IMG/VR virus record: IMGVR_UViG_3300047157_000186
Direction: 5' to 3' (one strand)
Source of the DNA: a virus
Lineage: Duplodnaviria; Caudoviricetes
DNA length: 64,000 bases
Both the position numbers and the translations under genes were made by a program. Positions within the stretch are counted from its first letter, which is position 1; the number at the start of each line of letters is the position of its first letter. A model generated the notes under the pieces. The model was not told where the DNA came from and ran no database searches. It saw nothing but the letters and a program-made list of their open reading frames with translations. This document shows positions 8,773 through 59,942 of this stretch, in pieces.

Positions 8773-8775
8773 CAT

Positions 8776-19732: not shown

Positions 19733-20752
19733 ATGAGAATATTATTTTATGCGGGCTATCAAAAGAATAAATTTGATGGTGATACAAATGAAGGATTAGC
19801 AGGAACTGAAATTGCTATAATTAATATAGCCGAAGAGATGGTTAAATTTGGTTATAAGGTTGTGGTTTCTGGTGAAGTAAAAGATTCTGGTTTAATTAAT
19901 GGAGTAGAATGGATATCAACACATGAATTACATGAAAAATATTTTGATCAGTTTGATTATATTATATCTGCAAGTTATATTCATTTTTTAAAAGAGTTTG
20001 AAAAATATTCAGCAAAGAAAGTATTTTGGGCACATAATACACATCATCACCCATGGTGGAATCACGAAGTGTTAGAAGACGCAAACCTTTTAACACAACA
20101 AGTTGATCATACAATTTGTTTGACTAATTGGCATAAGAATCACTGGGCACATACATATAATATACCTTTAAATAAAATCTCGGTGATTGGTAATGCCATT
20201 GATCCTTCAACATTTAGTGGTACTCCTGAAAAAGTTAAAGGTAAATTCATATATAGTTCTGCACCCGAACGTGGCTTATTGGAATTATTAAAAAACTGGC
20301 CAAAGATAAAAACTATAATGCCACATGCAACACTAGACATTTATTCTCCTGGATATTCTATAGCAAATCATACTGACTATTCATTTAATAAGTTTAAAGA
20401 AGTAACATGTCACGGTAGTGTAGATCAAAAAACATTACATAATGCCATGCTACGTGCAGAATATTGGTGTTATATAACTGATTATGAAGAAACATATTGT
20501 ATAACTGCACTTGAAATGCAATATGCCAAAGTATTACCTATTGTTACTAAAGTTGCTGCATTAAAAGAAACTGTAAATAGTGGAGTTATCTTAGAAAGAA
20601 ATGAAACAAATTGGAATCAGGCTATACAAATACTAGGTACACTAAGTAGTGGACTTAAGGATAAATCAATTAATGATGCATATAAATGGTCTAAACAACA
20701 AACATGGAATGTTAGATCATATGATTGGAAAAACATATTAGAATCTATATGA
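19733..20752 (+). CDS. GT-B glycosyltransferase (GT4-like)
   Basis: FIYSSAPERGL and EETYCITALEMQ (E-x7-E); ATG 19733 preferred over GTG 19706, which lies inside the terminator. Confidence 0.85.
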   Translation: MRILFYAGYQKNKFDGDTNEGLAGTEIAIINIAEEMVKFGYKVVVSGEVKDSGLINGVEWISTHELHEKYFDQFDYIISASYIHFLKEFEKYSAKKVFWAHNTHHHPWWNHEVLEDANLLTQQVDHTICLTNWHKNHWAHTYNIPLNKISVIGNAIDPSTFSGTPEKVKGKFIYSSAPERGLLELLKNWPKIKTIMPHATLDIYSPGYSIANHTDYSFNKFKEVTCHGSVDQKTLHNAMLRAEYWCYITDYEETYCITALEMQYAKVLPIVTKVAALKETVNSGVILERNETNWNQAIQILGTLSSGLKDKSINDAYKWSKQQTWNVRSYDWKNILESI

Positions 20753-30893: not shown

Positions 30894-31136
30894 ATGATAT
30901 TTAAAGAAAACACAGACGTGTTGTTTGACACACACAAAAAAACAAATAAGATTACATTATCTTGTACTAACGAAGTACAAATTGAAGGTGCTAGGAATTT
31001 CATAGAAAATTTTAGAAGTTGGTTATCATGTTTCGAATGTGAAGATGAAGTACAAACAGATTTATTAAAACAAATAATAGATGATGTTGAAATTACTTTT
31101 AGAAAGAAGTACCAGGAAATTGTTCGTAACTTTTAA
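30894..31136 (+). CDS. hypothetical protein
   Basis: Open ORF tightly coupled to the upstream gene. Confidence 0.6.
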   Translation: MIFKENTDVLFDTHKKTNKITLSCTNEVQIEGARNFIENFRSWLSCFECEDEVQTDLLKQIIDDVEITFRKKYQEIVRNF

Positions 31137-31150
31137 AAATAAATCACACC

Positions 31151-31198
31151 AGATTTTTTTATGTCAAATATTTGTGGTATATTAGTAGTATAATTAAA
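31151..31198 (+). promoter_or_regulatory. 48-bp conserved early-promoter-like element, copy 3
   Basis: AGATTTTTTTATGTCAAATATTTGTGGTATATTAGTAGTATAATTAAA. Confidence 0.8.
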
Positions 31199-31208
31199 AG
31201 TTAAAAAT

Positions 31209-31607
31209 ATGAATAAATTTAATGTAAATGAAGTAAGGTGTAACGGAGTCGGTGGCTCAGGTTACCAAGCAGTTCTTAAACACAAAGACGCAATCCAAGG
31301 GATTTGTCAAGATGTTAGAGATCTTATAGGTATTGAAAAACTATGGGAACTAGCAACGGCAGAACCTAATGTTGATTATCATCAAGGAACAAGATTTAAT
31401 TCTGTAGAAGATAATGCGTATAGACTTATTACTGGAATTGCAAACCACGTCTCGGAATACATTCCAACAAGTGAATTGATCGAGATGCACGTAGGAGCTA
31501 TTTTACCGATGTTAACTATGGAAGAAAAGGTAACACTTGTTGCTGATGCATGTAGAGATTGCGCTAGCGCAGATCATTGGTACACTTTCGAAAAAGATTG
31601 GGGATAA
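31209..31607 (+). CDS. hypothetical protein
   Basis: Open ORF directly behind promoter copy 3. Confidence 0.7.
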   Translation: MNKFNVNEVRCNGVGGSGYQAVLKHKDAIQGICQDVRDLIGIEKLWELATAEPNVDYHQGTRFNSVEDNAYRLITGIANHVSEYIPTSELIEMHVGAILPMLTMEEKVTLVADACRDCASADHWYTFEKDWG

Positions 31608-31608
31608 G

Positions 31609-31821
31609 ATGACTATTGAAGAAAGATACGATCGTATAGACTCTGCACCATACGTTATATTTCAAGACGATAAAACAGTACACACTGTTGAAAGTATAGA
31701 AATATTTGAAGACATGGTTATTGTAGAAACAAATACAGGTTGGTTATTTAACGATATGGATTTATTTACCCTAGAGGAAATGGTAGATATCGAAGAAAAA
31801 ATAAAAGATTTATTAAAATAA
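31609..31821 (+). CDS. hypothetical acidic protein
   Basis: ATG 31609, 1 nt after the upstream stop, is preferred over the track start at 31537. Confidence 0.65.
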   Translation: MTIEERYDRIDSAPYVIFQDDKTVHTVESIEIFEDMVIVETNTGWLFNDMDLFTLEEMVDIEEKIKDLLK

Positions 31822-31829
31822 ACGCACAA

Positions 31830-31877
31830 ATACTTTTTTATGTCAAATATTTGTGGTATATTAGTAGTATAATTAAA
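31830..31877 (+). promoter_or_regulatory. 48-bp conserved early-promoter-like element, copy 4 (5' end diverged)
   Basis: TTTTTTATGTCAAATATTTGTGGTATATTAGTAGTATAATTAAA. Confidence 0.8.
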
Positions 31878-31887
31878 AGCAAAAGAA

Positions 31888-32355
31888 ATGAAAAAAGTAA
31901 TATTTGATTTAGACGGAACTTTGGCTCTCATCGATAAGCGAAGAGCTATTTCTACAAAAGACAATGGAAAAATAGATTGGGATACATTCTTTGATCCTAA
32001 GAACATTGATCTTGACCAACCACATGATGCTGTAATTAAGATGGCACAAATGTTAGATGCAGCTGGACACATGATTGTTATTTTTAGTGGAAGATCTAAA
32101 GCCACTAAAGATGCTACTACAGCTTGGTTAAAAAAGTTTGATGTACCATTTAATGTATTGAAAATGAGACCAACTGGTAAAGATTTTAAGTTTATGCCAG
32201 ACGATGATCTTAAAAAGAAATGGTTTAACGACTTATTTCCAACACAAGATCATGTTGACGATGTAGTTTGTGTATTTGACGATAGACAAAAAGTAGTTGA
32301 TATGTGGAGAGATATGGGTTTAACTTGTATGCAAGTTGCACCTGGTAATTTTTAA
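31888..32355 (+). CDS. HAD phosphatase resembling the 3'-phosphatase domain of T4 polynucleotide kinase (PseT)
   Basis: VIFDLDGTLA, IFSGR, LKMRP...DDDLKK, VFDDRQKVVDMWR. Confidence 0.85.
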   Translation: MKKVIFDLDGTLALIDKRRAISTKDNGKIDWDTFFDPKNIDLDQPHDAVIKMAQMLDAAGHMIVIFSGRSKATKDATTAWLKKFDVPFNVLKMRPTGKDFKFMPDDDLKKKWFNDLFPTQDHVDDVVCVFDDRQKVVDMWRDMGLTCMQVAPGNF

Positions 32356-33849: not shown

Positions 33850-34053
33850 GTGACTATTAACACACTTTCATATTATCTTTTATTTGGTGTCATTGTAAAT
33901 GCACTATATGATTTCTTAATTTCTACAATAGACAGAGAGGATTTAAGATTTAATATGCTAGAAAGAATTTTAGTGGGTCTCTTTTGGCCAGCATATTTGG
34001 TACTACTTACTATTAACTTTATAATAAACTATATAAATGGAAAAAACAAATAA
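33850..34053 (+). CDS. small membrane protein
   Basis: GTG start; two hydrophobic segments. Confidence 0.6.
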   Translation: MTINTLSYYLLFGVIVNALYDFLISTIDREDLRFNMLERILVGLFWPAYLVLLTINFIINYINGKNK

Positions 34054-34969
34054 TTACGGATATTGTTGTATCAATACTACTTTACAGAAATCTGAAAAAG
34101 TTACTACTAATCGTAGCATGATTAAACGTACGTTTGCAGCTAAAGGTATTGAGTATGCATCAGAGCTTGCATTATTAAATGTAAAAGATTTAGTTAAAGT
34201 AATTAATTGGAATAATCGTAATGGCATCAAACTCTTTCGTATTAGTTCTGACATGTTTCCATGGATGAGCGAGTATGAATTGTCTGATTTACCAGATTAC
34301 AATAAAATTGTGAATGTTCTTAAAGGTGCTGGTAAAATTGCAATGGATAATGGCCAACGTTTGACATTCCACCCTGGCCCATTCGATGTATTGGCATCGC
34401 TTACACAACGAGTAGTTGACAAATGTATTATTGATCTCAACAAACATGGTGAAATTATGGATTTACTTGGTTTACCAAGAGATCACTCTGCACCAATCAA
34501 TATACATGTCAATACCACACAAGGTGGTAAAGAAGAAGCAATGCAAAGATTTGTGGATAATTTCAAATTACTTGACGATTCTGTACGTACTCGATTAGTT
34601 GTAGAAAACGATGACAAAGAAAGTCAGTACACGACTGAAGATCTATACGAAGGCGTATTCAGTAAAGTTGGTGTTCCTATCACATTTGATTATCATCACC
34701 ATTGGTGCCATCCAGGTGTATTATCGCAAGAAGAAGCACTTAAACTTGCAGCTAAATCATGGCCAAAAGGTATCAAACAATTAGTACATTATTCTTCATG
34801 TCAACAATTACATGAAGACGAGACTCAAACGAATAAGCGTGCGCATGCAGATTATATTTATGAGTATATAGAAACATATGGCCTGTATCTGGATATTGAG
34901 TTAGAAGTAAAAGCAAAAGAATTGGCTCTACAAAAATATTTGAAACAATATCAATTAGAGTTAGTATAA
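34037..34969 (+). CDS. uvsE: UV damage endonuclease UvsE/UVDE
   Basis: GYCCIN, LFRISSD.FPW, RLTFHPGPFDVLAS, INIH, RLVVENDD, FDYHHH, HYS, HAD, ELEVKAKE. Confidence 0.95.
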   Translation: MEKTNNYGYCCINTTLQKSEKVTTNRSMIKRTFAAKGIEYASELALLNVKDLVKVINWNNRNGIKLFRISSDMFPWMSEYELSDLPDYNKIVNVLKGAGKIAMDNGQRLTFHPGPFDVLASLTQRVVDKCIIDLNKHGEIMDLLGLPRDHSAPINIHVNTTQGGKEEAMQRFVDNFKLLDDSVRTRLVVENDDKESQYTTEDLYEGVFSKVGVPITFDYHHHWCHPGVLSQEEALKLAAKSWPKGIKQLVHYSSCQQLHEDETQTNKRAHADYIYEYIETYGLYLDIELEVKAKELALQKYLKQYQLELV

Positions 34970-35489: not shown

Positions 35490-35527
35490 GCTTTAAAGTG
35501 CAGTTAAATTTAAATGATATATAATAC

Positions 35528-36226
35528 ATGAAACATATTAGAACATATGAAAGTTTTATTGGTGAAGGAAGATCTGCATATGACGGATTAGCTTCTAAAT
35601 TAACTAAAGCTATATTCAATAAATGGGTTAAATCATATAAAGGCGGGAACGCTACAATAAATTATGGAGACCAAATTGAAGAGAGAGGTTTAGAGTTTGA
35701 TATTGAAGCTACTATTGATATTGATAAAAAATATGAAGGATTTCAAGTATTAGATTCAACAGGTGCCGATGGCAGAGACGATGATGATCACGGTGACTTT
35801 CAAACACCTTATATTATTATAGACTTTGCTTTAAATCCTGAGTGGATTCCAGGAGAATGGTCAACAGTATATTTTCATTTAGCGGATGTTGTTCGCCATG
35901 AAATGGAACATATTACACAAGATGGGATTGACACTGGAAATTACAGAAACGGCAAACCTAATGAAGACGATAGTGAACTAAGAGCCTATATAAAAATGGG
36001 ACTTTTACCAAAATCTCAATATCTAATGTTACCTAAAGAGGTAGATGCTAATTTACAAGGATTAAGATATGAGGCTAAGAAGAGAAAAGAAAACATGAGT
36101 GATACTGTTCGTAGATATTTAGATACGCAACAGGAACAGGGTGTTATTAACGACGAAGAAAGAGAACAAGTATTAGATCTTTGGAGACGAAGAGCAGCAA
36201 AAATAGGAGGTATACCTAAATTTTAA
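35528..36226 (+). CDS. zincin-like (HExxH) protein with N-terminal leader
   Basis: VVRHEMEHITQ and a downstream E (PKEVDA); N-terminus MKHIRTYESFIGE; GATATATA at 35516-35523. Confidence 0.65.
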   Translation: MKHIRTYESFIGEGRSAYDGLASKLTKAIFNKWVKSYKGGNATINYGDQIEERGLEFDIEATIDIDKKYEGFQVLDSTGADGRDDDDHGDFQTPYIIIDFALNPEWIPGEWSTVYFHLADVVRHEMEHITQDGIDTGNYRNGKPNEDDSELRAYIKMGLLPKSQYLMLPKEVDANLQGLRYEAKKRKENMSDTVRRYLDTQQEQGVINDEEREQVLDLWRRRAAKIGGIPKF

Positions 36227-36227: not shown

Positions 36228-36683
36228 ATGAAATACATAAAACTATTCGAAGAGTTTACAGCAAACAAGGTATCTTGTGATAACTGTGGTTGGTCTTGGG
36301 AAATAGAAGACGGTGGACACGATGTGTTTATTTGTCATAAATGTAATCATGATAATACACCTATTTTAGGAGAACAATTTATCTTACAGGAATTAGAAGA
36401 TCAATTCAATATAGAATTAGATTTATATGATAACGGTAAATACTTACAACTTAGTAAAATAAAAATACAAAAAGAGGACCGAAATAAAGGAATCGGTTCT
36501 AAGGTTATGTCAAGAATTACTGACTATGCCGACACACAAAATTTAAAAATATATCTAACACCTTCTAAAGATTTTGGAGCAACTTCTATTTCTAGATTAA
36601 ATAAGTTTTATAAAAACTTTGATTTTGTCAAGAATACAGATAAAAGCCAAACTAAAGATACTATGGTTAGATTACCAAAATAA
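36228..36683 (+). CDS. Zn-ribbon plus GNAT acetyltransferase with N-terminal leader
   Basis: MKYIKLFEEF; CDNC...CHKC; IKIQKEDRNKGIGSKVM (acetyl-CoA motif A) and LNKFYKNFDF. Confidence 0.75.
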   Translation: MKYIKLFEEFTANKVSCDNCGWSWEIEDGGHDVFICHKCNHDNTPILGEQFILQELEDQFNIELDLYDNGKYLQLSKIKIQKEDRNKGIGSKVMSRITDYADTQNLKIYLTPSKDFGATSISRLNKFYKNFDFVKNTDKSQTKDTMVRLPK

Positions 36684-36693: not shown

Positions 36694-39654
36694 ATGAGCA
36701 ATTTTAACGATTTCCTAGGAATGCAAGCCGCAAAACTAAACATGACAAGAGAAGAGTATACTGCATACTATTTGTCAGAAGCAAAACCTGGTCCAAAACC
36801 ATATCACAGAGGATTAGATGACGATGAGATTGAAGATAAAAAAGATCAGATAAAAAAACAATCAGACATGGATGACGATGATTCTAGTGCATATAAAGAA
36901 ATGCCAGGTGATAAAGAAGCTAGAGAAAAAGGTGAAGTTAAAACATCTAAGCATGTAAAGAAATATCATGAATTATATGGTGATAAAAAAGATGAGTCAG
37001 TGGATGAAGCAACATTCAGACCAAACTCAGGTACTATGAGTGGAGGTACATATACTTTAGATAATAGAAAATATAAATTAAAAAAAGATATTGAAGGTGT
37101 TCAAATTGGTAATTATACAAATATAGTGTTACCAAAGGGAACTATTATATACAACATTCCGGGCGGTGTGTTTGCAGATCACCCTTCATTAAAAAGATAC
37201 GAGAACGGAAACAACAAATATTTTAACAAACCAACATTTAAGGGAATTTCTATTATAAGAAAAGAGGAAACTATCTTTTCAATAGATAAAAATTCAAAGA
37301 TATTAGAATCAGTAGTTACTGAAGCTAAAGCATATAAGTTAAAAGCTTCTGAATTCGGTGGAGATACACACTCAGCACCGTACAACGTAAAGGGCGAACC
37401 TACATGGAGAGTTCATAGTACTTATGCTATTGATCAAGTATCTGGAGAAAATGATGCAAGTGAAAGAGACGTAGTTTTCTTTGAAGCAATGCCTATTAAT
37501 AATGACATATACATTAAGATTGGTGGAATCAATAACCTTAAAAGAACTAATGGTTCTACATACGGTAATAACTTTGGCACTACTATTGAAGAATGGAAAA
37601 AGGATCCAAAGAGAATTGCAAAAGAAGCTTCCGAGTTTCTTACTGATGCAACGCATCTTAAATGGATAAACAAAAAAGCAAGAAGTCAGGGTCAAACAAT
37701 TAAATGGGCTTTGAAGGACGATTACTCTAGTGTGATTGTAGATCTAGTTAATAAATCATTAGGTCTTACTGAATCTCAAGTTAATGAGTTTTATTTTGAG
37801 AAAGATGAAGAAGAAAGATTACAAAAATTTGTAGATCAACTTTCTTTTGGAGATGAACTAGAATACAGAGATGGTTTTTCTACAGGTCGTGGAAGCTTTC
37901 CAAATACAAGACAACTTAAAAATGAATTAGATTCTAATTTTCAATTATTACTAACTCAAAAATCAGGTAGAAATTGGGATCTTTATGTTGGTAGTGATGA
38001 TTTAGTTTTTCTTATACAGCCAGATTTAGGTGCAAAGAATTATATGCAAGTTTCAATAAGTAGTACTAAAGAACAATGGAACGATGAGTCTAGTGTTTTT
38101 GCTAGATCCAATGGATATTCAGTATATGAATCAGTAGTTAACGAAAGAGCTAAACACACATCAACTGATTTTTCTAAACCAGGTAATGATGGTGATATTT
38201 ACTTTTCAAAAAGAGAAGGTGATGCCGTCGGCGTTAGATTAGGAGATAAATTACAAATGATTTATGTTTTTCAAGAAGAACCTAAATTAGGAAGAATTCA
38301 AAAAACTGATAAACGTTGGGAAAACATGGGTCCAGCTTCTGAAGAACTTTTAATTGATTTAAGAGGTAGAGAAGAAGGTAAAATATTATTTGACTTTGTT
38401 TCAACTCTTGAAGAATCAGTAGTTAATGAAGAAAAGATTAAATATGCTAAAGGAAAAACATATCAATCTTCTGGTCATTGGACTGTACAAGTTGATAGTA
38501 ATTCAAGTATGTGTGATATTAGAGTAAATCATTCAGCTGGTTGGAGATTAGATCCACATGATGATAGAGAAGAAACTTGGGAATTATTAGATAATGGAAG
38601 ACAAAGAGCTACAATATATTTTAAATCTGGTAATATTGATAAGTTTGCTAAACAGATGTTTGATCTTAATGATAGAACAACTTGGGGTAATAAAACAAAA
38701 TTAACTGCTAAAGATTATGCAGATATTATTAGAGTTTGGATCGATATGAAAATGGCTAATGAAGGTAATTATAACTTAGAAGATATTTATGATTTAATAG
38801 CACATCACAGATTTGATAAAGATTATAAAAAACTTTCTTCTAAAGACAGAGAGTGGATAGAGAATGATGCTGAAGAAAGAGGATTCGTAGAATCTTTATC
38901 ACCCAGATTTTTTAATTCTTTATTAGTAAAGTTAAACGAAGATTTAATTACAGAAAGTAAAGTGCCTAATTTTAAATTCGGTATGAAAAAACAATATGAC
39001 GCTGATGATATTAATCAAATGTATGGTTTTTGGGGAACTCTAGATGTTCATATGGACACTTATGAAATTGAAGAAATATGGAACGATGTATGGGGAATAT
39101 TGACAAGGGGTTGGAAGTTCTCAGATGCTGGAGCGCTATATTATCTAAACGCAAAAGCTGGTAGATGGTTAGCAGATAAAGTATGGAACGATATTAATTC
39201 TCAGATTTCTCAACCAGATGCCATTGATATGATTTTATCTGATTATGCTAGACCATCTAAATGGAAGGCATGGTCAAAAGAATATAATACATTTGCTCAG
39301 GAAGAATTGGCAGAATGTGTTATTCTAGAAAAGGCTGAAGGCGATAGAGGTCCAATCAGTGATCCTAAAATTGAAAAAGCACTTAAGACAAAATCAGAAG
39401 AAACTGGTGTGCCAATTGGTATCATTAGAATTATTATGAGAAGAGGAATGGCAGCATGGAAAACTGGTCATAGACCTGGTGCAACTGAACAACAATGGGG
39501 ATATGCTCGAGTAAATGCATTTTTAACAAAAGGTAAAGGAACTTGGGGAGATGCTGATAAAGATGTCGCTAAAGAAGTTAGAGATGAAGGTCATGATGAC
39601 GGGTTAAAGGAACAGAATTACTTTGATCAATCACACAGAAAACAAAATATATAA
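36694..39654 (+). CDS. modular ~990-aa putative head-cargo polyprotein
   Basis: Unrelated-looking modules joined by ESVDEA/ESVVTEA/ESQVNE/ESVVNE/LNE-type linkers; ATG 36694 preferred over 36619. Confidence 0.7.
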   Translation: MSNFNDFLGMQAAKLNMTREEYTAYYLSEAKPGPKPYHRGLDDDEIEDKKDQIKKQSDMDDDDSSAYKEMPGDKEAREKGEVKTSKHVKKYHELYGDKKDESVDEATFRPNSGTMSGGTYTLDNRKYKLKKDIEGVQIGNYTNIVLPKGTIIYNIPGGVFADHPSLKRYENGNNKYFNKPTFKGISIIRKEETIFSIDKNSKILESVVTEAKAYKLKASEFGGDTHSAPYNVKGEPTWRVHSTYAIDQVSGENDASERDVVFFEAMPINNDIYIKIGGINNLKRTNGSTYGNNFGTTIEEWKKDPKRIAKEASEFLTDATHLKWINKKARSQGQTIKWALKDDYSSVIVDLVNKSLGLTESQVNEFYFEKDEEERLQKFVDQLSFGDELEYRDGFSTGRGSFPNTRQLKNELDSNFQLLLTQKSGRNWDLYVGSDDLVFLIQPDLGAKNYMQVSISSTKEQWNDESSVFARSNGYSVYESVVNERAKHTSTDFSKPGNDGDIYFSKREGDAVGVRLGDKLQMIYVFQEEPKLGRIQKTDKRWENMGPASEELLIDLRGREEGKILFDFVSTLEESVVNEEKIKYAKGKTYQSSGHWTVQVDSNSSMCDIRVNHSAGWRLDPHDDREETWELLDNGRQRATIYFKSGNIDKFAKQMFDLNDRTTWGNKTKLTAKDYADIIRVWIDMKMANEGNYNLEDIYDLIAHHRFDKDYKKLSSKDREWIENDAEERGFVESLSPRFFNSLLVKLNEDLITESKVPNFKFGMKKQYDADDINQMYGFWGTLDVHMDTYEIEEIWNDVWGILTRGWKFSDAGALYYLNAKAGRWLADKVWNDINSQISQPDAIDMILSDYARPSKWKAWSKEYNTFAQEELAECVILEKAEGDRGPISDPKIEKALKTKSEETGVPIGIIRIIMRRGMAAWKTGHRPGATEQQWGYARVNAFLTKGKGTWGDADKDVAKEVRDEGHDDGLKEQNYFDQSHRKQNI

Positions 39655-39657: not shown

Positions 39658-40344
39658 ATGAAGTATATTAAATTGTTTTTAGAATCTGAAGTCAGAGATG
39701 ACGATACTTACAGCGATTATCCAGAAGCGGCAAAGAAAAATGCTCAAATGGCAATCGATTGGAAAGAAAAGTATGGTCGCGAAGAAGTGGACGCTGGAAC
39801 TGCAGTTGGTTGGGCAAGAGCACATCAATTAGCTAAAGGTGAAAACATATCTGGAGATACAGTAAAACGTATGGCTTCATTTAATAGACATAGAAAAAAT
39901 TCATCTATTAAACCTGAATTAAAAGAAACTCCATGGAAAGATAAAGGTTATGTTTCTTGGTTAATATGGGGTGGAGATGAAGGAGTTGATTGGGCAATGG
40001 AACTATCTAAAAAGATGAGTAAAGTTGAAGAAATGGTTAGTGTTTTATCTTTAGATCAATTTATTCTAGAGAAAAAGAAAAGTAAACCAAAAACAGATAA
40101 AGAAAAAATAAAAGATCTTTCTAAAAAACAAAAGAGTTTATCTAAGAAAAACAAAGATTTTATTGAGAAAATAAATAAGATGTCTAAAGATAAATCAAAA
40201 GAACCAGCTGATAAAATAGAAACGGCATTGTTAAAATCACAAATGCAACAAACTTCTGTTGATGGCATGAAAATAGCTGTTCAAAAAAACCAATTAGCTT
40301 TGAAAGCAAAGCTAAAGACGATTAAAAAAAGATCAAAGGCATAA
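39658..40344 (+). CDS. putative virion head-associated protein, two modules
   Basis: MKYIKLFLESE leader; YSDYPEAAKKNA...GWARAHQLA...WLIWGG domain; internal SLDQFILEK before a Lys-rich helical part. Confidence 0.6.
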   Translation: MKYIKLFLESEVRDDDTYSDYPEAAKKNAQMAIDWKEKYGREEVDAGTAVGWARAHQLAKGENISGDTVKRMASFNRHRKNSSIKPELKETPWKDKGYVSWLIWGGDEGVDWAMELSKKMSKVEEMVSVLSLDQFILEKKKSKPKTDKEKIKDLSKKQKSLSKKNKDFIEKINKMSKDKSKEPADKIETALLKSQMQQTSVDGMKIAVQKNQLALKAKLKTIKKRSKA

Positions 40345-40348: not shown

Positions 40349-40831
40349 ATGAAATATATTAAATTATTTGAATCATTTGTAAATGATAAAGAGATCAAGG
40401 ACTGGGAAAAAGATAACGGTAAACTACCGATTCCCAAGAAGATCATAGAGATATCTAAGGATATGGCAAAGGAAGGTTTTATTAGAAAAGATACTAAGGC
40501 GGTTCAAGCTAAATTATGGATTGGATTAGAAGGAATTTCATGGATAGAAATGAAGCAAAAGTTTGGAGATATAGTAGGTAAATTTTATGGTGGAGAATTC
40601 TATAATGCTATGACAAACCCTATGGCAGAAAAATCAGCCTATTATGCATATGAAGTTTCGAAGCATGTTAGTGATATGGTTGCTAATGAAGAATCAGTAG
40701 AACCTGCTTACTATCTAATGAAAAATTATTTTAATTCATTTGGATTAAATATTAACAGAAATAAACTTTTCGACAGAGCAGAAAGAGAACTAGATGCATG
40801 GATGAAAAACAACAAAATAGAAACGTTATAA
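40349..40831 (+). CDS. hypothetical protein with MKYIKLFESF leader
   Basis: Shared N-terminal motif. Confidence 0.7.
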   Translation: MKYIKLFESFVNDKEIKDWEKDNGKLPIPKKIIEISKDMAKEGFIRKDTKAVQAKLWIGLEGISWIEMKQKFGDIVGKFYGGEFYNAMTNPMAEKSAYYAYEVSKHVSDMVANEESVEPAYYLMKNYFNSFGLNINRNKLFDRAERELDAWMKNNKIETL

Positions 40832-40867: not shown

Positions 40868-41563
40868 ATGGACAAAAAAATATTATCATTCGAAGAGTAT
40901 GCTGCTAATAAAAATCTAGCAAATACTGACAAATTGGCTGAAGACGAAATCGAAATCAAAGTAGACGGAGAGTATGAAATCGAAGTAGAAAAAGAAGACG
41001 AAGACGAAAAAGAAGCGGAAACTGAAGAAACTGAAGAAAAAGTTGAAGAGGCTGAAGAGGTTGATGAAGATTTTGAAAAAAAATTCAATTCGGCAATGGA
41101 TTCTGTGGATGATGTTCGTACAGAAATTGAAATGACATTAGAAGACACACCTCAGTTAAAATCATTCTATACAGTAGATGCCCAATTAGATAAAGCACTA
41201 GGAAGTTATAGAAAAAAAATTAAGCGTATATTAAGTGCAGTTTCGGAATCAACTAATGAAGCAGAAGAAACTGAAGAGGTTGCAAAAGCGGTTTCAGAAA
41301 TGATGACAGAGGCATATGAATCTGCCGTCAAAGAAGCATGTGAATATGACAAAGATGACTATCCTGACCACACTGTAGAATCATACCTTAAAGAAAACGC
41401 AACATTAGCTGCAACATTAGTTGCTCAATCAGCAGAAGATGCGAACGCTGAGATACATGGAGAAGGACTTACTAAAGAAATGTACGAAGCATGTCTAAAC
41501 GGTATTAAAGAAGCTTATAATAAAAAGATTGATGAGCTTAAAGAAATGTACGAAGCAAAATAA
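40868..41563 (+). CDS. very acidic helical protein, possible scaffold/core component
   Basis: Glu/Asp-rich; MDKKILSFEEY leader; internal ESTNEA; GATATATA at 40840-40847. Confidence 0.55.
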   Translation: MDKKILSFEEYAANKNLANTDKLAEDEIEIKVDGEYEIEVEKEDEDEKEAETEETEEKVEEAEEVDEDFEKKFNSAMDSVDDVRTEIEMTLEDTPQLKSFYTVDAQLDKALGSYRKKIKRILSAVSESTNEAEETEEVAKAVSEMMTEAYESAVKEACEYDKDDYPDHTVESYLKENATLAATLVAQSAEDANAEIHGEGLTKEMYEACLNGIKEAYNKKIDELKEMYEAK

Positions 41564-47380: not shown

Positions 47381-49225
47381 ATGTCTGGAATTGGTAATGA
47401 TGCAAATTTTATTTTTAAGAAGGTTTTAAACGTTGTTGATAAAACCACAGGTTTAGAAGTATCTGAATATTTTTATGATGATACTGTAAATGGAAGAGAA
47501 GTTATAACTAGAACACCAAAATCCGGTGCTCTTGATTCTCCTAAACCATCGGCAGCAGACCAGAAAGGAACTGGAAAAACAACTTTAAGTCAAGAAAGTG
47601 TTTTTGGAGAAGCACAAAGCGGAAGTTCAATGTATCCTGAAAAAGGTGTAGATTCCAGAGCATATCCTATAAAATCCGTAGTGAGCGGTGAAAAAGGAGA
47701 CACATATGAAGACAAAGGTGAAACAGTTACTTTTGGAAAAGCTCCTCGAAGTTTATTTAATAATTGGACATTACATAGATATCAAAACAGGGTAGGTACA
47801 GTTTCAGAAGACTCTGGTACAGAATACAATGGTAAAACATATAATAAACCAGTAACTGCTGCATTAGCACAAAACTTACAAAAAAATCCAACAGCAAGAA
47901 ATATTGTAGAGTATTCACAGTCTGTTGGAGGTGCATGCTTCTCTTATAGTTATAGTGATTTTATTCAAATGGAACACTATGGTCAAATATCTAATGATTA
48001 TTTAGTTACACTTAGAAGATTTGCATATCCTGTAGGTGATGACTTATTAAGTCCTAAAACTGCAGGAACCAAAGGTAAAAAGGTAGATTCTTCTGCACCT
48101 GATTTGGCAAGAGCAGTGACGTGGTTATCTCCAGGTTTAGGTAATGATTTAAAAGAAATATTAAAATTCACAACAGGATATCAATGGAAAGAAGCTAAAT
48201 CAGAAATACAAGATGCACAATCAAGACAATCTGATAGAGGTGCAGCTGGAGCCGCAATTGATAATAGTAAATATGGAGCTGCGATTGAATCAGGATTAAA
48301 TGGTTTTACATCGGTTCAAGCTAAAAAACTTAGAAATGCAGGTAACGTAGATCACACTAAAGAAACTTACCCAAATAAAGTATTTGGACCTCTTAATATT
48401 ATAGATAAAGTTCTAGCTAGAGAAAAAGGACTTAAATTTGAACAAGAATTTAAATTATCATTTCATTATGACTTAAAGGCATATCCAGGTACTAGTCCAA
48501 AGGTTGCATTTATGGATACACTAGCCAACGTATTGGCACTTACATATAGTAACGCACCATTTTGGGGAGGAGCTACTAGATTTTCTGGATCTGGTGCAAC
48601 TGGAAAGCCATTCGGTGATACGGCTTTATTAGAGAAAGGTGATTATGCTGGTTATTTAGGTTCTATTGCTGACACTCTTGCAGGTATGGGTGGTAATTTT
48701 ATGGATCAACTTAAGAAAACTGCAAGTAATATTAAAAACGGTGAAGGTATTAATAAAATTCTAGGTGATTCTTCTATTCTTGAAAATATCGTAGGTGGAG
48801 GTTTAATGAAAATGATGGGAGGACCTAGTGGTGGTGATGTAATTAAAGCTTTTTTAACAGGTGATCCTACTGGAAACTGGCATGTGACTATAGGTAATCC
48901 AATGAATCCTATAATGGTATGCGGAAACTTATGTTTAGAAGATACTAATTTTTCATTTGAAGGACCACTCGGTTTTGAAGGATTTCCTACTAAACTGAAA
49001 GTTGAAACTACTTTAAAACCTGGAAGACCAAGAGATAAAACAGATATTGAATCTATGTTTAATGCTGGTCGAGGTAGAATGTATTTACAACCAGAATGGG
49101 GTGAAGGTGAAGGAATAGACATAGATGCAATGTTAAATGTGGATGCATATGGAGATAAATCTGGAAAAGGAAATCTTGCTAATAAACCATATATGAGTAG
49201 ATTATCTGATATGTCTGCTGGTTAA
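47381..49225 (+). CDS. putative baseplate/tail-tube junction structural protein
   Basis: First gene of the baseplate block; GNWHVTIGNPMNPI...P...KVETTLKPGRPRD resembles T4 gp48/gp54-type folds; GATATATA at 47352-47359. Confidence 0.5.
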   Translation: MSGIGNDANFIFKKVLNVVDKTTGLEVSEYFYDDTVNGREVITRTPKSGALDSPKPSAADQKGTGKTTLSQESVFGEAQSGSSMYPEKGVDSRAYPIKSVVSGEKGDTYEDKGETVTFGKAPRSLFNNWTLHRYQNRVGTVSEDSGTEYNGKTYNKPVTAALAQNLQKNPTARNIVEYSQSVGGACFSYSYSDFIQMEHYGQISNDYLVTLRRFAYPVGDDLLSPKTAGTKGKKVDSSAPDLARAVTWLSPGLGNDLKEILKFTTGYQWKEAKSEIQDAQSRQSDRGAAGAAIDNSKYGAAIESGLNGFTSVQAKKLRNAGNVDHTKETYPNKVFGPLNIIDKVLAREKGLKFEQEFKLSFHYDLKAYPGTSPKVAFMDTLANVLALTYSNAPFWGGATRFSGSGATGKPFGDTALLEKGDYAGYLGSIADTLAGMGGNFMDQLKKTASNIKNGEGINKILGDSSILENIVGGGLMKMMGGPSGGDVIKAFLTGDPTGNWHVTIGNPMNPIMVCGNLCLEDTNFSFEGPLGFEGFPTKLKVETTLKPGRPRDKTDIESMFNAGRGRMYLQPEWGEGEGIDIDAMLNVDAYGDKSGKGNLANKPYMSRLSDMSAG

Positions 49226-53489: not shown

Positions 53490-54206
53490 ATGAATGATAA
53501 AGAATTAGTTGAAGATAATCTAAGAGAAACTCATTGGTTAGGAGAAGTTGTAGTAAACGAAGATCCTTTACTTAATGGTAGATGTCGCGTAAAAGTTTAT
53601 GGTAAATTTGATAAACTGACAGATGATGCTATTCCATGGGCAACTCCTATGAATAGAGATCAAATTGGATCACATGCTGTTCCAAGAGTTGGCGATATTG
53701 TTGCAGTTAGATTTGATAACGGAAACATATACCACCCAGAATATTGGTTTCAGATTGATCAAAATCCAGATTTAAAGACAGATATATTGGAAGCATCTGA
53801 TGCACCACATGATGTAATTAGTTTAGTATATGATGCAGAAAGAAATGTTAGAATATATCATTCACCTGAAGATGGCTTAGTTATTACTCGAGGGAGTGGA
53901 GCCAAGGAAAGACCGATGATACAGATAGACGAAGAAGGATTCATTAAAATAAGCACAGATGCGAAGATGTTCTTAGACTGTGGTGATATATTCGTTTCAA
54001 ATGAAGGTGAACCAGGTGCTGATGAAACAGAGCCAGCAGTGAGAGGTCAATCTTTACAAGATTGGTTACAAACATGGTTAGATGATTATAATGCACATAT
54101 TCACCCAACTGGAGTTGGACCATCTGGTCCTCCCATGCCACCTACACCAGCAACCGTAGGTAAATTATCAAGTTCTCATATTAAGTATCAACAAAAGAAT
54201 AAGTAG
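53490..54206 (+). CDS. baseplate central spike (gp5/gpV-like)
   Basis: WLGEVVVNEDPLLNGRCRVKV OB-fold start, VPRVGDIVAVRFDNG...P, and C-terminal HIHPTGVGPSGPP metal-binding apex. Confidence 0.85.
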   Translation: MNDKELVEDNLRETHWLGEVVVNEDPLLNGRCRVKVYGKFDKLTDDAIPWATPMNRDQIGSHAVPRVGDIVAVRFDNGNIYHPEYWFQIDQNPDLKTDILEASDAPHDVISLVYDAERNVRIYHSPEDGLVITRGSGAKERPMIQIDEEGFIKISTDAKMFLDCGDIFVSNEGEPGADETEPAVRGQSLQDWLQTWLDDYNAHIHPTGVGPSGPPMPPTPATVGKLSSSHIKYQQKNK

Positions 54207-54208
54207 TT

Positions 54209-56005
54209 ATGCCTGCACTGTGGCCAACATTCATACCAAATTTAGCAGCTGATATTGCTGGGCGAGAATTTACAAAACCAGGTGGTGCTATAGTTTCATA
54301 TGCTCTTCCAAAGGTTGGTGTTAATCAAGTTCCTATTTTTCCTCCATCTTTAGATCTAATAAAATCTATTAAACCTGGAAATCCACTAAACGTATCATTA
54401 ACAACAGATCCTACTGCAATGATAAATGCTATTAATCTTGCACCTCTAAGTGGAAGATATGATTTTGGTGTAAGAGTTGCTGAAAGATATTTAGAAGCTG
54501 TAAAAGGTTTAGCAATGACACCGTTTGGTGCAACGCATACTAATAATCCTGCTGCTGAATTTCTTTTAAAACAAGGTTATGGCTTAGTATTTGAACGATT
54601 ATTAAAAGAGGGTGATATTCCATTGCAAGATCAATATGATGAAGATGGTAATTTAACTGAAATGGGTAAAGAGTCACATCCTGATTATGCTGATTTTTGT
54701 CCAGATCCAGTTGAGGAACCAGATCCAATTGAGGAACAAAAGAAATTAGATAAGAAATTTAGTAAGTTTATAGACGAGTATAAGAATGATTCTGCTATGG
54801 ATTTAAAAAAGTTTAGATTTTTTGAATTTCCATGTTTAACTGGAGATGAATCGCAAGAGGATTTAGAAAAACTTTTTGCTTCTAGATTATTACAACAATT
54901 TAGCGGTATTACAAACGTAAACACTAAATGGGAATTCTATATTTGGTTAGCATGTCTTGGTTCAGAAAACTATAGTAATTCGAGTGGATTTGGAGGAAAC
55001 TGGTCGGGTTTACCATATCCTAATATTAGTAACGAAACTAGAAGTGATATTGAAGATGCAGGTTATAGTTGGACACAGCTTGCTAATAATGTAAGTAGCA
55101 TATGTGTTGAAGCAATTCATGATGCACATCCAGGTGAAGAATCTGAAAGTGCATTTTTTAACACAAACGCACTAAGACAGAGAATTCAAAAAGATGCCAC
55201 TAATGAAATTGTTTTGCCTATAGAATTAGAATGTCCACTAAATAGGTATAAAATACAGGTTGCATATGATTACGAAACTGATAGTAAAAGACCTAAAATT
55301 TTAACATCACATGTTATTGCGACATTTAGTTGGTATCCTGGTGTAAGAAGCGGATCGTTTAGTGCAAATGCAGAAGGTATTGTTACTAATGCTCCTAAAT
55401 TTACAAAAAATAATAATTGGGTTAAATCAAAGTATAGAGATCAAGAATTAAAAAATGGTTGGCGCAAAATTCCAAATGCAATGAGCAACGCTAGAACACC
55501 TGAACATGTGATTGATATAAACCCAACATCAGGTGGAACTATATTTAAATTTCAAAGACAACAAGTGATCGACGCTAAGGCCGCTGCAGAAGAATGTGAT
55601 GCTGCAGAAGAAGATAGTAATATAGATTATACTTGGCCAGGTGGTGATCCTTATGAAGAAATGGCAGAAATAACTATTGCATATTGGTATGCATGTTTAG
55701 TGAAACCATTTACACCATCTCCATCTGCTTTGCCAGCATTGATTCCTCCTCCACTTACTGGAATTTATATTCCAATTTATTATGGTGGTAAAAAAAGATT
55801 GGCTAAGAATTTAAGAAGAGCATGGAATACCGGGAAAACATTTTCAGTTATTCCTGCTCCAATGCCACCTGCATTAGCAGTTTCAACAGCTGTTGCGGCT
55901 GCGTATATGTTACACTTATTAGAATTTAAATTATTATATCTTGGTGGAATTCCTACACCTGCTGGACCAGTGCCAATGGTTGGAATTGTTCCTGTAGTAT
56001 TCTAA
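54209..56005 (+). CDS. putative baseplate-associated structural protein
   Basis: Follows the spike gene; Pro-rich hydrophobic C-terminus (GGIPTPAGPVPMVG). Confidence 0.5.
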   Translation: MPALWPTFIPNLAADIAGREFTKPGGAIVSYALPKVGVNQVPIFPPSLDLIKSIKPGNPLNVSLTTDPTAMINAINLAPLSGRYDFGVRVAERYLEAVKGLAMTPFGATHTNNPAAEFLLKQGYGLVFERLLKEGDIPLQDQYDEDGNLTEMGKESHPDYADFCPDPVEEPDPIEEQKKLDKKFSKFIDEYKNDSAMDLKKFRFFEFPCLTGDESQEDLEKLFASRLLQQFSGITNVNTKWEFYIWLACLGSENYSNSSGFGGNWSGLPYPNISNETRSDIEDAGYSWTQLANNVSSICVEAIHDAHPGEESESAFFNTNALRQRIQKDATNEIVLPIELECPLNRYKIQVAYDYETDSKRPKILTSHVIATFSWYPGVRSGSFSANAEGIVTNAPKFTKNNNWVKSKYRDQELKNGWRKIPNAMSNARTPEHVIDINPTSGGTIFKFQRQQVIDAKAAAEECDAAEEDSNIDYTWPGGDPYEEMAEITIAYWYACLVKPFTPSPSALPALIPPPLTGIYIPIYYGGKKRLAKNLRRAWNTGKTFSVIPAPMPPALAVSTAVAAAYMLHLLEFKLLYLGGIPTPAGPVPMVGIVPVVF

Positions 56006-56051
56006 AAAATAATAGGATATATATTATGTTACACCTTTAATATAAAAATAA

Positions 56052-57338: not shown

Positions 57339-57391
57339 CTATTGCAACGAGAGTGTGATATATAATCAAACGGTAATATCATAATCTTAGT

Positions 57392-58702: not shown

Positions 58703-58703
58703 A

Positions 58704-59546: not shown

Positions 59547-59568
59547 ATAAAAGAAGATAAATAAATAA

Positions 59569-59925: not shown

Positions 59926-59942
59926 AAAAGTATACATAAATA

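What the first reader, a model, noticed from the sequence alone, without database searches (positions are those of the whole stretch)
36694..39654. Beads-on-a-string polyprotein: modules separated by ES(V/Q)V(N/T)E linkers that are also conserved in DNA
Seen: linkers LSEA, ESVDEA (36994), ESVVTEA (37306), ESQVNE (37771), ESVVNE (38128), ESVVNE (38413), MANE (38752), LNEDLITES (38932) and ECVILEK (39313) divide the protein into ~40-155-aa segments with no similarity to each other. Three linkers share the identical 13-mer GAATCAGTAGTTA. Established: T4-type prohead proteases cleave after Glu in short hydrophobic-X-Glu contexts. Inference: a polyprotein that is packaged once and cut into roughly 8-9 small effectors, with linker micro-homology allowing cassettes to be gained, lost or shuffled by recombination. 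This would be a modular delivery array, possibly for anti-defence proteins.
Basis: partly seen in the sequence, partly recalled or inferred. Interest (0 to 1): 0.88.

Follow-up and report, generated by a model that had tools for sequence, protein, structure and literature searches.

The report
Shuffled, cleavable polyprotein of phage head cargo
A marine T4-like phage strings about nine unrelated small proteins into one 986-residue chain, joined by a standard six-residue connector that looks like a cutting site for the phage's head-maturation protease. The same connector is the DNA breakpoint where related phages swap, lose or gain whole modules.

Summary
The ORF at 36694-39654 (986 aa) carries E-S-V/Q-V-N/T-E connectors at the stated places. 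The 13-mer occurs three times in the window, only at connectors.

Shown here:
- About 1,900 protein clusters share single modules with this protein. 66% of 589 homology breakpoints lie within 8 residues of nine proposed junctions (16% by chance).
- Near-identical syntenic phages differ by deleting or replacing whole modules, with crossovers inside the 18-nt connector.
- Two cassettes are 86-94% identical in DNA to phages whose backbone proteins are only about 53% identical.
- In 101 different upstream contexts, the residue before a module start is always Glu and P3 is always hydrophobic. This is the rule for T4-type prohead proteases.
- The same modules also occur alone, directly behind an MKxIKxFExFIxE leader that resembles the T4 capsid-targeting sequence.
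- The conserved ends are the two halves of DUF5824.

Inferred, not shown: cutting by the prohead protease, packaging into the head, ejection into the host, and any anti-defence role.

I found no paper describing this. It is a new variant of T4 internal proteins and of polyvalent proteins. Other first-reader notes report similar arrays elsewhere in this genome; I did not check them.

The parts
35516..35527 (+). Late-promoter-like motif (TGATATATAATAC) in front of the three-gene run 35528 / 36228 / 36694. The polyprotein gene has no such motif of its own.
   Evidence: [GA]ATATATA occurs 17 times on the + strand, 15 of them just upstream of ORF starts, including tail-fibre and baseplate genes. 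Its function is inferred.
36694..39654 (+). Polyprotein gene, 986 aa plus stop
   Evidence: The identical protein is in the public collection as P0002 (33 member sequences). The exact DNA is present in metagenomes from at least 10 studies and in 6 RNA libraries.
36694..36780 (+). N-terminal leader, aa 1-29, ending YLSE|A. It is an alternative to the canonical MKxIKxFExFIxE leader.
   Evidence: In relatives the same next module (KPGPxPY...) follows either this leader or a canonical leader, e.g. MKHIKAFEAFVKE|AKQKPGP.
36781..37008 (+). Module 1, aa 30-105: the N-terminal half of DUF5824 (Lys-rich then Asp-rich), ending ESVDE|A
   Evidence: Aligns to residues 12-69 of P0212, where it is contiguous with the C-half. 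Homology breakpoints cluster at aa 27 and 101-108.
37009..37323 (+). Module 2, aa 106-210, ending in connector ESVVTE (37306-37323)
   Evidence: Found in 15 different upstream contexts, all with P1 Glu. Occurs on its own in small proteins.
37324..37788 (+). Module 3, aa 211-365, ending in connector ESQVNE (37771-37788). It is the most widespread cassette.
   Evidence: 39-42 upstream contexts. It follows a leader directly in P0051 and P0190. Replaced by an unrelated cassette in L020/L002. 93.6% nt identity to G003. The AF2 model is alpha/beta, pLDDT 65, with no PDB match.
37789..38145 (+). Module 4, aa 366-484, ending in connector ESVVNE (38128-38145)
   Evidence: Modules 4 and 5 together are replaced by two other cassettes in L001. 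Six upstream contexts, all with P1 Glu.
38146..38430 (+). Module 5, aa 485-579, ending in connector ESVVNE (38413-38430)
   Evidence: Precisely absent from the 97%-identical relative L018/L019; the two alignment blocks overlap by the 18-nt connector. Weak similarity to module 2.
38431..38763 (+). Module 6, aa 580-690, ending MANE|G (38752-38763)
   Evidence: 41-49 upstream contexts, all with P1 Glu. 22 homology ends fall at aa 690. 86-89% nt identity to L007, L009 and L011. Contigs diverge at 38763.
38764..38955 (+). Module 7 with spacer, aa 691-754, holding three hydrophobic-x-Glu sites (FVE 731-733, LNE 747-749, ITE 752-754). Boundaries are uncertain.
   Evidence: Homology boundaries are spread over aa 735, 745-752 and 760.
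38956..39330 (+). Module 8, aa 755-879, ending VILE|K (39319-39330)
   Evidence: 58 boundaries fall in the aa 870-879 bin. phrog_8020 (function unknown) matches aa 774-836.
39331..39651 (+). Module 9, aa 880-986: the C-terminal half of DUF5824, the conserved C-terminal end of the family
   Evidence: Pfam PF19141, 53.6 bits against a cut-off of 25. AF2 gives a five-helix domain, pLDDT 85. The only structural matches are other DUF5824 proteins, one in an entry named as having an XkdF domain.
35528..36226 (+). Leader-bearing neighbour (MKHIRTYESFIGE|G), 232 aa, with an HExxH motif. Same gene run as the polyprotein.
   Evidence: In L009/L011 it is the second module of a 337-aa protein, behind a connector.
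36228..36683 (+). Leader-bearing neighbour (MKYIKLFEEF), 151 aa, zinc ribbon plus a weak GNAT-like region
   Evidence: Its N-terminal part occurs inside polyproteins P0083, P0084 and P0087.
39658..40344 (+). Leader-bearing neighbour (MKYIKLFLESE), 228 aa. In relatives it is an internal module of polyproteins.
   Evidence: 33 hits inside polyproteins at 67-79% identity. It is part of the single 1247-aa ORF in L009.
40349..40831 (+). Leader-bearing neighbour (MKYIKLFESF), 160 aa. In relatives it is the C-terminal module of polyproteins, leader included.

Best explanation
The gene encodes a polyprotein of head-packaged 'internal' (ejection) proteins of the T4 kind. About nine unrelated modules of 60-155 aa sit between the two halves of a DUF5824 protein. 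Each junction is a short site, consensus E-S-V-V-N/T-E followed by A, E, G or K. Its invariant parts are a hydrophobic residue at P3 and Glu at P1.

Proposed mechanism:
1. The gene is transcribed late, together with two leader-tagged neighbours.
2. The chain is taken into the prohead core by its N-terminal leader and/or the DUF5824 ends.
3. The gp21-type (Peptidase_S77) prohead protease cuts after each junction Glu. This releases the modules in equal numbers, to be ejected with the DNA.
4. The 18-nt connector is also conserved as DNA. It serves as the homology at which general recombination deletes, inserts, replaces and horizontally exchanges whole cassettes without breaking the reading frame or the cutting sites.

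Shown: the modular architecture, the junction rule, cassette exchange inside the connectors, the interchange between single genes and polyprotein modules, and the presence of the protease family in relatives. Inferred: cleavage, packaging, ejection and what the modules do. An anti-defence or host-takeover role is a guess from T4 precedent.
For: 1. Junction rule. 101 distinct upstream contexts of four modules were found by the module's own start signature, not by the connector motif. P1 is Glu in 101/101 (background 8.7%) and P3 is hydrophobic in 101/101 (background 23.5%), while P2, P4, P5 and P6 vary. Logo from 472 connectors: P6 E, P5 S, P4 V 46%, P3 V/I/L 99%, P2 N/T 84%, P1 E, P1' A/E/G/K. 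Prohead proteases of T4, phiKZ and SPN3US cut C-terminal to Glu after a short motif (PMC9026906; PMC5694885).
2. Leader. More than 60 family members start M-K-x-[IVL]-K-x-F-[ED]-x-F-[ILV]-x-E. T4 ipII and ipIII start MKTYQEFIAE|A. That 10-residue CTS is sufficient for packaging and is cut off by gp21 (PMC9026906). Module 3 begins with the same residue after a leader (P0051, P0190) as after a connector (P0001 aa 211).
3. Fusion and fission. The window's separate genes 39658 and 40349 are internal or terminal modules of one 1016-1247-aa ORF at the syntenic locus of L009/L011.
4. Cassette exchange. 66% of 589 internal homology breakpoints lie within 8 aa of nine sites (16% random, maximum 24% in 2000 trials). 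Relatives 92-97% identical in DNA differ by one precise deletion and two replacements with crossovers inside connectors. Cassette DNA is 86-94% identical to phages whose baseplate wedge protein is 53% identical. Contigs in four runs diverge at 37330, 37771, 38130, 38408 and 38763.
5. DNA-level conservation in 59 distinct connectors: P4 Val is GTA in 28/28 (background 40%), P3 Val is GTT in 43/46 (51%), Ser is TCA in 69% (32%), and Thr is ACT in 22/24 (53%).
6. Protease and context. Relatives G002-G004 encode Peptidase_S77 fused to a scaffold, next to a gp23-type capsid gene. In G002 a leader-tagged ORF lies between them, and a connector-bearing ORF lies two genes downstream of the capsid gene.
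7. A late-promoter-like motif is shared with tail-fibre and baseplate genes.
Against: There is no direct evidence of cleavage, virion location or ejection; no proteome of a relative was available. The window's own genome is not held, so its protease and head genes could not be read; the protease evidence comes from relatives at about 53% protein identity. This protein's own N-terminus is not the canonical leader. Part of the P3-P1 conservation could be inherited together with each module's 5' end, because crossovers fall inside the connector. The capsid N-terminal sites in relatives (LINE|A in G002, GINE|A in G003) are not at the same position. Only one in about fifty family members scanned carries an enzyme domain (Zeta_toxin/AAA_33, CTP_transf_like), so the effector role is unsupported. 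The RNA libraries may contain DNA.
Confidence: 0.7

Rival explanations
1. The protein is an uncut multidomain 'polyvalent' protein. The connector is only a standard structural joint and recombination site, and the chain works, or is packaged, as one piece.
For: Polyvalent proteins with 2-15 unrelated domains and strong mosaicism are known, and some are packaged unprocessed, e.g. the N4 virion RNA polymerase (PMC5512222). DNA-level conservation of the connector would be explained by recombination alone.
Against: A pure recombination or structural joint does not need an invariant Glu exactly one residue before every module start, plus a hydrophobic P3, while the other positions vary. The connector equals the processing half of a T4-CTS-like leader. 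Modules also exist as separate leader-tagged genes, so they work without being joined. The connector is hydrophobic and acidic, not the Gly/Ser/Pro-rich type of a flexible tether.
Confidence: 0.13
2. The chain is cut at the connectors, but by another protease, for example the HExxH protein encoded two genes upstream (35528-36226) or a host enzyme. Cutting need not happen inside the prohead.
For: Polyvalent proteins are often released by embedded or associated peptidases (PMC5512222). The HExxH ORF shares the gene run and is kept at the syntenic locus in L009/L011.
Against: Specificity defined on the P side with P1 Glu is the hallmark of gp21-type proteases. G003 has two polyproteins with six connectors each, but no homologue of the HExxH ORF in its 124 kb; it is a fragment, so this is weak. 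The HExxH ORF carries the leader itself, and in L009 it sits behind a connector, so it looks like cargo. No Pfam peptidase family was detected for it.
Confidence: 0.08
3. The modules are cytoplasmic proteins that are never packaged. The leader and connector serve expression, folding or turnover, or are only conserved recombination handles, like the mobile regulatory cassettes of T4-type genomes.
For: The gene lies among nucleotide-metabolism and repair genes (UvdE, dCMP deaminase, helicase), not in the head module. No virion data exist.
Against: The T4 ip genes also lie outside the head module, next to the UV-repair gene denV. The leader is conserved as a peptide across divergent codons and resembles the T4 CTS. 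A late-type motif is shared with virion genes. In G002, leader-tagged and connector-bearing ORFs lie near the scaffold and capsid genes.
Confidence: 0.08
4. The pattern is an assembly or gene-calling artefact: chimeric metagenome contigs joined at repeated connectors.
For: All sequences are metagenomic, and assembly graphs do branch at the connectors.
Against: The 18-nt repeat is shorter than usual assembly words. Each variant recurs on many independent contigs and samples: P0003 on 12 contigs, P0008 on 11, and the window's form in at least 10 studies. The reading frames stay open. The cultured phage HTVC008M has the same layout in gp130.
Confidence: 0.01

Closest known systems
T4 internal proteins IPI, IPII, IPIII and Alt with the capsid targeting sequence (CTS)
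   Same: A short N-terminal MK...F..E leader ends in hydrophobic-x-Glu. The cargo behind a shared leader is diverse and unrelated, and varies between related phages. The genes lie outside the head module, beside a UV-repair gene in both cases. The phage has a gp21-family protease (PMC3012670).
   Different: T4 has one cargo per gene and one cut per leader. Here up to about 13 cargos are chained in one ORF, with the processing half of the leader repeated between them. This protein's own leader is non-canonical. Cleavage and packaging are untested here.
Polyvalent proteins of phages and conjugative elements (Iyer, Burroughs, Anand, de Souza, Aravind 2017; PMC5512222)
   Same: Many unrelated domains sit in one polypeptide, with strong combinatorial mosaicism. 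Both are proposed to be delivered with the DNA, and the paper draws the analogy to viral polyproteins.
   Different: That paper makes no mention of inter-domain linkers ('linker' occurs 0 times) and attributes release to embedded peptidases. None of its hallmark domains was found here; Pfam finds only DUF5824. The modules here are much smaller.
Multiply cleaved head and ejection proteins of giant phages (phiKZ, 201phi2-1, SPN3US)
   Same: A gp21-related protease cuts after Glu at short motifs (S/A-x-E, A-x-E), several times in one protein. Paralogous ejection proteins have conserved N-terminal propeptides.
   Different: In those phages the extra cuts remove long propeptides that are discarded. 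Here each piece between cuts is a conserved, independently occurring module. No cassette exchange at cut sites is reported there.
Pelagibacter phage HTVC008M gp130 ('cytidyltransferase') and the Methylophilales phage Melnitz homologues
   Same: Cultured T4-like marine phages whose proteins share the DUF5824 C-half at 42-49% identity. gp130 reads: cytidylyltransferase part, EDTVNE, DUF5824 N-half, a short insert, then the C-half.
   Different: They have few modules and a less regular connector, and are annotated only as an enzyme or as hypothetical.
Integron gene cassettes (analogy only)
   Same: Unrelated units with standard boundaries are exchanged as whole cassettes between genomes.
   Different: No dedicated recombinase or attC-type site is present. 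The boundary lies inside a coding frame and is probably used by general homologous recombination. This is an inference.

Membership tests
T4-type CTS-targeted internal (ejection) proteins | An N-terminal propeptide of 10-20 residues of the MK..F..E type that targets the protein to the prohead core | tested here: inconclusive
   The canonical leader is present on the neighbours 35528, 36228, 39658 and 40349, and on more than 60 family members. This ORF starts with a different 29-residue leader ending YLSE|A, which replaces the canonical one in front of the same module. The targeting function was not tested.
T4-type CTS-targeted internal (ejection) proteins | Cleavage after Glu in a hydrophobic-x-Glu context by the gp21-type prohead protease | not testable with these tools
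   The sequence rule is met at every junction: P1 Glu 101/101 and P3 hydrophobic 101/101. No proteomic or biochemical data exist. The complex prediction gave no answer.
T4-type CTS-targeted internal (ejection) proteins | The phage encodes a Peptidase_S77 (gp21) prohead protease | tested here: inconclusive
   Found above the Pfam cut-off in relatives G002, G003 and G004, fused to a scaffold and next to a gp23-type capsid gene. The window's own genome is not held, and its closest fragments lack that region.
T4-type CTS-targeted internal (ejection) proteins | Physical presence inside the capsid and ejection into the host | not testable with these tools
   Context only: the late-type promoter motif, and the position of related ORFs near the scaffold and capsid genes in G002.
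Polyvalent proteins (Iyer et al. 2017) | Two to 15 unrelated domains in one polypeptide of a phage or plasmid, with combinatorial architectures among relatives | tested here: met
   About 9-10 mutually dissimilar modules. A crude segmentation gives 171 module families in 121 relatives, in permuted orders.
Polyvalent proteins (Iyer et al. 2017) | Hallmark conflict domains (MuF, ART, ParB/DarB-type, zincin MPTase, lysozyme, PBECR and others) and/or an embedded peptidase | tested here: not met
   Pfam finds only DUF5824 in this protein, whole or module by module. Among 48 relatives there is one Zeta_toxin/AAA_33 and one CTP_transf_like hit.
Pfam DUF5824 (PF19141) | A match to the family model above its gathering score | tested here: met
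   53.6 bits against a cut-off of 25, but only profile positions 61-125 at aa 898-957. The N-terminal half of the model corresponds to aa 37-100, 800 residues away, as shown by alignment to P0212, where the two halves are contiguous.

The most novel reading that the evidence does not exclude
Marine T4-like phages run a standardised 'plug-and-play' system for ejected proteins. A single 18-nt, six-residue element would serve both as the prohead-protease cutting site and as the recombination handle. Any small protein gene flanked by it could then be inserted into a polyprotein, packaged in equal numbers under one targeting signal, released in the head, and traded between distantly related phages as a cassette. 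This would be an integron-like cassette market that works inside a reading frame. Its thousands of unknown modules would be a large untapped library of host-directed effectors, possibly anti-defence ones.
Probability: 0.45. Interest if true: 0.88.

Novelty: new variant of a known kind. Interest (0 to 1): 0.78.

Why it matters
T4's capsid-targeting leader and internal proteins are the textbook case of a phage delivering proteins with its DNA. One of them, IPI*, is a proven anti-restriction factor. This locus suggests that abundant ocean phages have scaled that idea up. Instead of one cargo per gene, they chain many cargos with a repeated cutting site, and the same element lets cassettes move between phages.

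If confirmed, three things follow:
- It gives a simple sequence rule (leader, or connector ending hydrophobic-x-Glu) for finding virion-delivered proteins in uncultured phage genomes.
- It yields a catalogue of at least hundreds of module families with no known fold or function. About 1,900 clusters at 50% identity match this one protein.
- It is a natural example of in-frame cassette exchange in which a protease site doubles as a recombination site.

It would also give a role to DUF5824, as the conserved ends of the array. Cultured relatives (HTVC008M, Melnitz) make the idea testable.

Tried and rejected
- Own-genome search: the assembly is not held, and the nearest record G001 (47 kb) has no protease match.
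- Megablast of 16 kb against isolated phages: no match.
- A stacked alignment of 119 module fragments, meant for a full-length AlphaFold model, was misaligned by MAFFT: fragment identities of 10-25% instead of 50-95%. I abandoned it, so the 'one integrated fold' test was replaced by the evidence that modules occur alone.
- An 84-protein alignment failed internally.
- Pfam module by module at E up to 1: nothing beyond DUF5824.
- ESM Atlas search for module 3: no usable hit.
- Fold searches of module 3 (pLDDT 65) and of the DUF5824 C-half (pLDDT 85) against PDB by Foldseek and by VIA-align wide: best E 0.05 and 0.7, best Z 5.2 and 5.0, all within noise. Several sigma-factor region-2 rows at Z 4.4-5.0 for the C-half are below the level that means anything for helical bundles.
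- Complex prediction of the G003 protease domain with a 40-residue connector segment: no answer (score 0.00). This is neither support nor evidence against.
- A 2A-like translational 'skipping' peptide was considered and dropped: the motif is unrelated, and bacteria are not known to support it (own knowledge).
- A site-specific recombinase site was considered. The connector is not palindromic and no recombinase is nearby, so general homologous recombination is the simpler reading.
- Literature searches for the motif strings, DUF5824/PF19141 and related terms found no description of this architecture.
Full report
**1. What is there**

The window is part of a low-GC (about 32%) marine myovirus. 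Collagen-like tail fibres lie at 874-12190 and baseplate genes at 53490-61772. The nearest isolates, Pelagibacter phage HTVC008M and Methylophilales phage Melnitz, match only the last ~100 residues of the ORF.

The ORF at 36694-39654 is open for 986 codons. The 13-mer GAATCAGTAGTTA occurs three times in the 64 kb, only at connectors. The modules between connectors are mutually dissimilar. The one exception is a weak M2/M5 match, E 0.02. Pfam recognises only the C-terminal ~60 residues, as DUF5824.

**2. The family is a mosaic that breaks at the connectors**

A word-indexed search gave 744 relatives of 572-1717 aa. These show high local identity (50-98%) but low coverage (11-62%). An exhaustive HMMER search of 1.84 billion representatives gave 1,938 clusters at E <= 0.001, nearly all matching single modules.

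BLAST alignment blocks start and stop at aa ~27, 103, 205, 360, 484, 574, 690, 750 and 875. The same modules occur in permuted order in other proteins; P0011, for example, has M6, M1, M4-M5, M3. Of 589 internal block boundaries, 66% lie within 8 residues of the nine proposed junctions. Random placement gives 16%, with a maximum of 24% in 2000 trials. Cutting 121 relatives at the motif gives 589 segments in 171 families. The motif E-[ST]-x-[VILM]-x-E is 29-fold enriched over shuffled sequence, 473 against 16.

**3. Cassette exchange is visible in DNA**

| Syntenic relative | DNA identity | Difference from the window |
|---|---|---|
| L018/L019 | 97% | Lacks 38146-38412 (module 5). The two alignment blocks overlap by the 18-nt connector, and the junction keeps the left connector's AAC codon. 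|
| L020/L002 | 92% | Replaces module 3 (37336-37769) with an unrelated cassette and also lacks module 5. The 5' half of each flanking connector goes with the upstream module and the 3' half with the downstream one. |
| L001 | 95% | Replaces modules 4 and 5 with two other cassettes. |

Cassettes also move between distant phages. Module 3 DNA is 93.6% identical to G003, and modules 3 and 6 are 86-89% identical to L007, L009 and L011. These alignments begin and end at connectors. Yet the baseplate wedge protein of G003 is only 53% identical, and the genes flanking the locus in L009/L011 are 51-67% identical. In four sequencing runs, contigs leave the window's sequence at 37330, 37771, 38130, 38408 and 38763, all connector positions. 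The exact gene occurs in metagenomes from at least 10 studies and in six RNA libraries, though DNA carry-over is not excluded.

**4. The connector is conserved as DNA beyond what the peptide needs**

In 59 connectors with distinct 78-nt contexts:

| Position | Codon used | In connectors | Background in the same ORFs |
|---|---|---|---|
| P4 Val | GTA | 28/28 | 40% |
| P3 Val | GTT | 43/46 | 51% |
| P5 Ser | TCA | 69% | 32% |
| P2 Thr | ACT | 22/24 | 53% |

Connectors are not independent, since they spread with cassettes. But that spread is the point: either homogenisation by recombination or selection for homology keeps them alike.

**5. The junction obeys the rule of a T4-type prohead protease**

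To avoid circularity, I located module starts by each module's own signature and read what lies upstream. This gave 101 distinct upstream contexts for modules 2, 3, 4 and 6. The residue before the module was always Glu (101/101, background 8.7%) and P3 was always V, I, L, M or F (101/101, background 23.5%). P2 varied (T, N, H, G, Y, V, A, K, D). The 'ES' at P6-P5 was absent in about a third of contexts.

Prohead proteases of the gp21 family cut C-terminal to Glu after a short motif. phiKZ uses S/A-x-E and SPN3US uses A-x-E; T4's own sites include LIE and the CTS end IAE (PMC9026906; PMC5694885).

Relatives G002-G004 encode Peptidase_S77 above the Pfam cut-off. It is fused to a coiled-coil scaffold and lies next to a gp23-type capsid gene. 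A conserved RVNE|S stands at the end of the protease domain. Connector-like sites (ESKVEE|K, ETVNE|A) lie about 25 residues from the scaffold C-terminus.

**6. The leader links the family to T4 internal proteins**

More than 60 relatives, and the window's ORFs 25789, 35528, 36228, 39658 and 40349, begin M-K-x-[IVL]-K-x-F-[ED]-x-F-[ILV]-x-E. T4 ipII and ipIII begin MKTYQEFIAE|A, and ipI begins MKTFKEF.... That 10-residue CTS suffices for packaging, and its residues 8 and 10 direct processing (PMC9026906). T-even internal proteins are a diverse set that share only the CTS (PMC3012670).

The last six residues of the leader (e.g. ESFISE, EEFIVE) have the form of the connector. Module 3 starts with the same Ala whether it follows a leader (P0051, P0190) or a connector (this ORF). 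The same holds for module 1.

Genes that are separate in the window are modules elsewhere. The modules of 39658 and 40349 lie inside one 1016-1247-aa ORF at the syntenic locus of L009/L011, and leader-like sequences survive inside polyproteins (LKYVKVLNE|G). In G002 a leader-tagged ORF sits between the scaffold and capsid genes, and a connector-bearing ORF lies two genes downstream of the capsid gene. G003 has two further polyproteins with six connectors each.

**7. The conserved ends**

DUF5824 is two modules in its own right.
- In P0212 (230 aa) a leader is followed by the N-half and C-half, contiguous with each other.
- P0164 has one cassette between the halves and P0160 has two.
- This ORF has seven or eight cassettes between the halves.
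- P0207 has the halves in reverse order, and P0226 has only the C-half.

HTVC008M gp130 has a cytidylyltransferase part, EDTVNE, the N-half, a short insert and the C-half.

AlphaFold2 gives the C-half as a confident five-helix domain (pLDDT 85). No solved structure resembles it. The AlphaFold DB matches are other DUF5824 proteins, one in an entry named as carrying an XkdF domain. I read the ends as possible packaging or anchoring parts, but that is a guess.

**8. Expression context**

The motif [GA]ATATATA lies 4-30 nt before 35528 (which heads the run 35528-36228-36694), before 39658 and 40868, and before tail-fibre and baseplate genes. In all, 15 of its 17 + strand copies sit just upstream of ORF starts. 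It resembles a late promoter; this is inference.

**9. Function of the modules**

Function is unknown. Of 48 relatives scanned, 27 hit DUF5824, one hit Zeta_toxin/AAA_33 and one hit CTP_transf_like. Module 3 models as a small alpha/beta domain (pLDDT 65) without a match. An anti-defence role rests only on the T4 precedent (IPI*), the rapid turnover and the horizontal spread.

**10. Verdict**

| Claim | My odds |
|---|---|
| The architecture and cassette exchange at the connectors are real | ~0.95 |
| The connectors are cut after Glu by the prohead protease | ~0.75 |
| The products are head cargo that is ejected | ~0.65 |
| The modules act against host defences | ~0.4 |

The kind of system is known: T4 CTS internal proteins, polyvalent proteins, and multiply cleaved giant-phage head proteins. 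I did not find described a chain of cargos joined by a repeated, nucleotide-conserved cutting site that doubles as the recombination breakpoint. Other first-reader notes report further such arrays and many leader-tagged genes elsewhere in this genome. I could not check them because the genome is not held.

Noticed in passing
window 35528-36226 and 36228-36683: Two leader-tagged genes head the run that contains the polyprotein. One is a 232-aa protein with an HExxH motif and no Pfam family. The other is a 151-aa zinc-ribbon protein with weak, sub-threshold GNAT matches, whose C-terminal part matches a 3925-position PHROG profile. In L009/L011 the HExxH protein is the second module of a 337-aa protein, behind a connector.
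   Followed up: partly
window, + strand: 839, 7534, 9431, 15696, 22526, 25462, 25777, 27019, 27552, 35516, 39646, 40840, 47352, 56016, 57357: The motif [GA]ATATATA sits just upstream of 15 ORF starts, including tail-fibre, baseplate and leader-tagged genes. It is a candidate late promoter, comparable to T4's TATAAATA.
   Followed up: partly
window 40868-41563: A 231-aa highly acidic protein (Glu-rich repeats) starting MDKKILSFEEY. Relatives differ by an indel at 41068-41251, and sequencing runs show small GAAACT-type repeat indels at 41017-41037. It is a length-variable acidic repeat protein next to the array.
   Followed up: partly
window 31136-31217 and 31815-31896: About 83-nt near-identical direct repeats in intergenic DNA, also matched twice in the relatives' loci. 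They probably belong to the repeated promoter elements that another first-reader note describes.
   Followed up: no
window 34037-34969, compared with T4 locus L022: The leader-tagged cluster follows a UvdE UV-endonuclease gene. In T4, ipII and ipIII lie directly beside denV, the UV-repair endonuclease V gene. This may be coincidence.
   Followed up: no
window 47381-49225 and 56052-57338: Two late-motif ORFs of unknown function carry a single connector-like site near the N-terminus: ESVFGE|A at about aa 72-77 and ETVVEE|L at about aa 18-23. They are possible protease-processed virion proteins.
   Followed up: no
L012 (G002) 1432-3279; L014 (G003), minus strand: In relatives, the Peptidase_S77 prohead protease is fused to a long coiled-coil, acidic scaffold (615-689 aa) with a conserved RVNE|S at the end of the protease domain. 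CheckV completeness of 42-49% for 117-149-kb records suggests genomes near 300 kb.
   Followed up: partly
window 37764 joined back to 37306 (runs X16, X17): Contigs in two RNA-library runs join the end of module 3, via six extra letters, to an ESVVTE connector identical to the one at 37306. This suggests a variant in which module 3 is followed by another ESVVTE-headed cassette, possibly a tandem copy.
   Followed up: no
AlphaFold DB entry A0A2D7ZP00: A 494-aa protein, named as carrying a PBSX XkdF domain, has a DUF5824 C-half-like domain at residues 384-468. From memory, XkdF is a putative prohead protease. If so, this is a hint that the DUF5824 C-half belongs to the head interior.
   Followed up: no
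window 20725-22083 and 874-12190: A glycosyltransferase / 2OG-Fe(II) oxygenase fusion protein lies next to collagen-like tail-fibre genes (PHROG matches). Another first-reader note reads it as a collagen-modification system.
   Followed up: no
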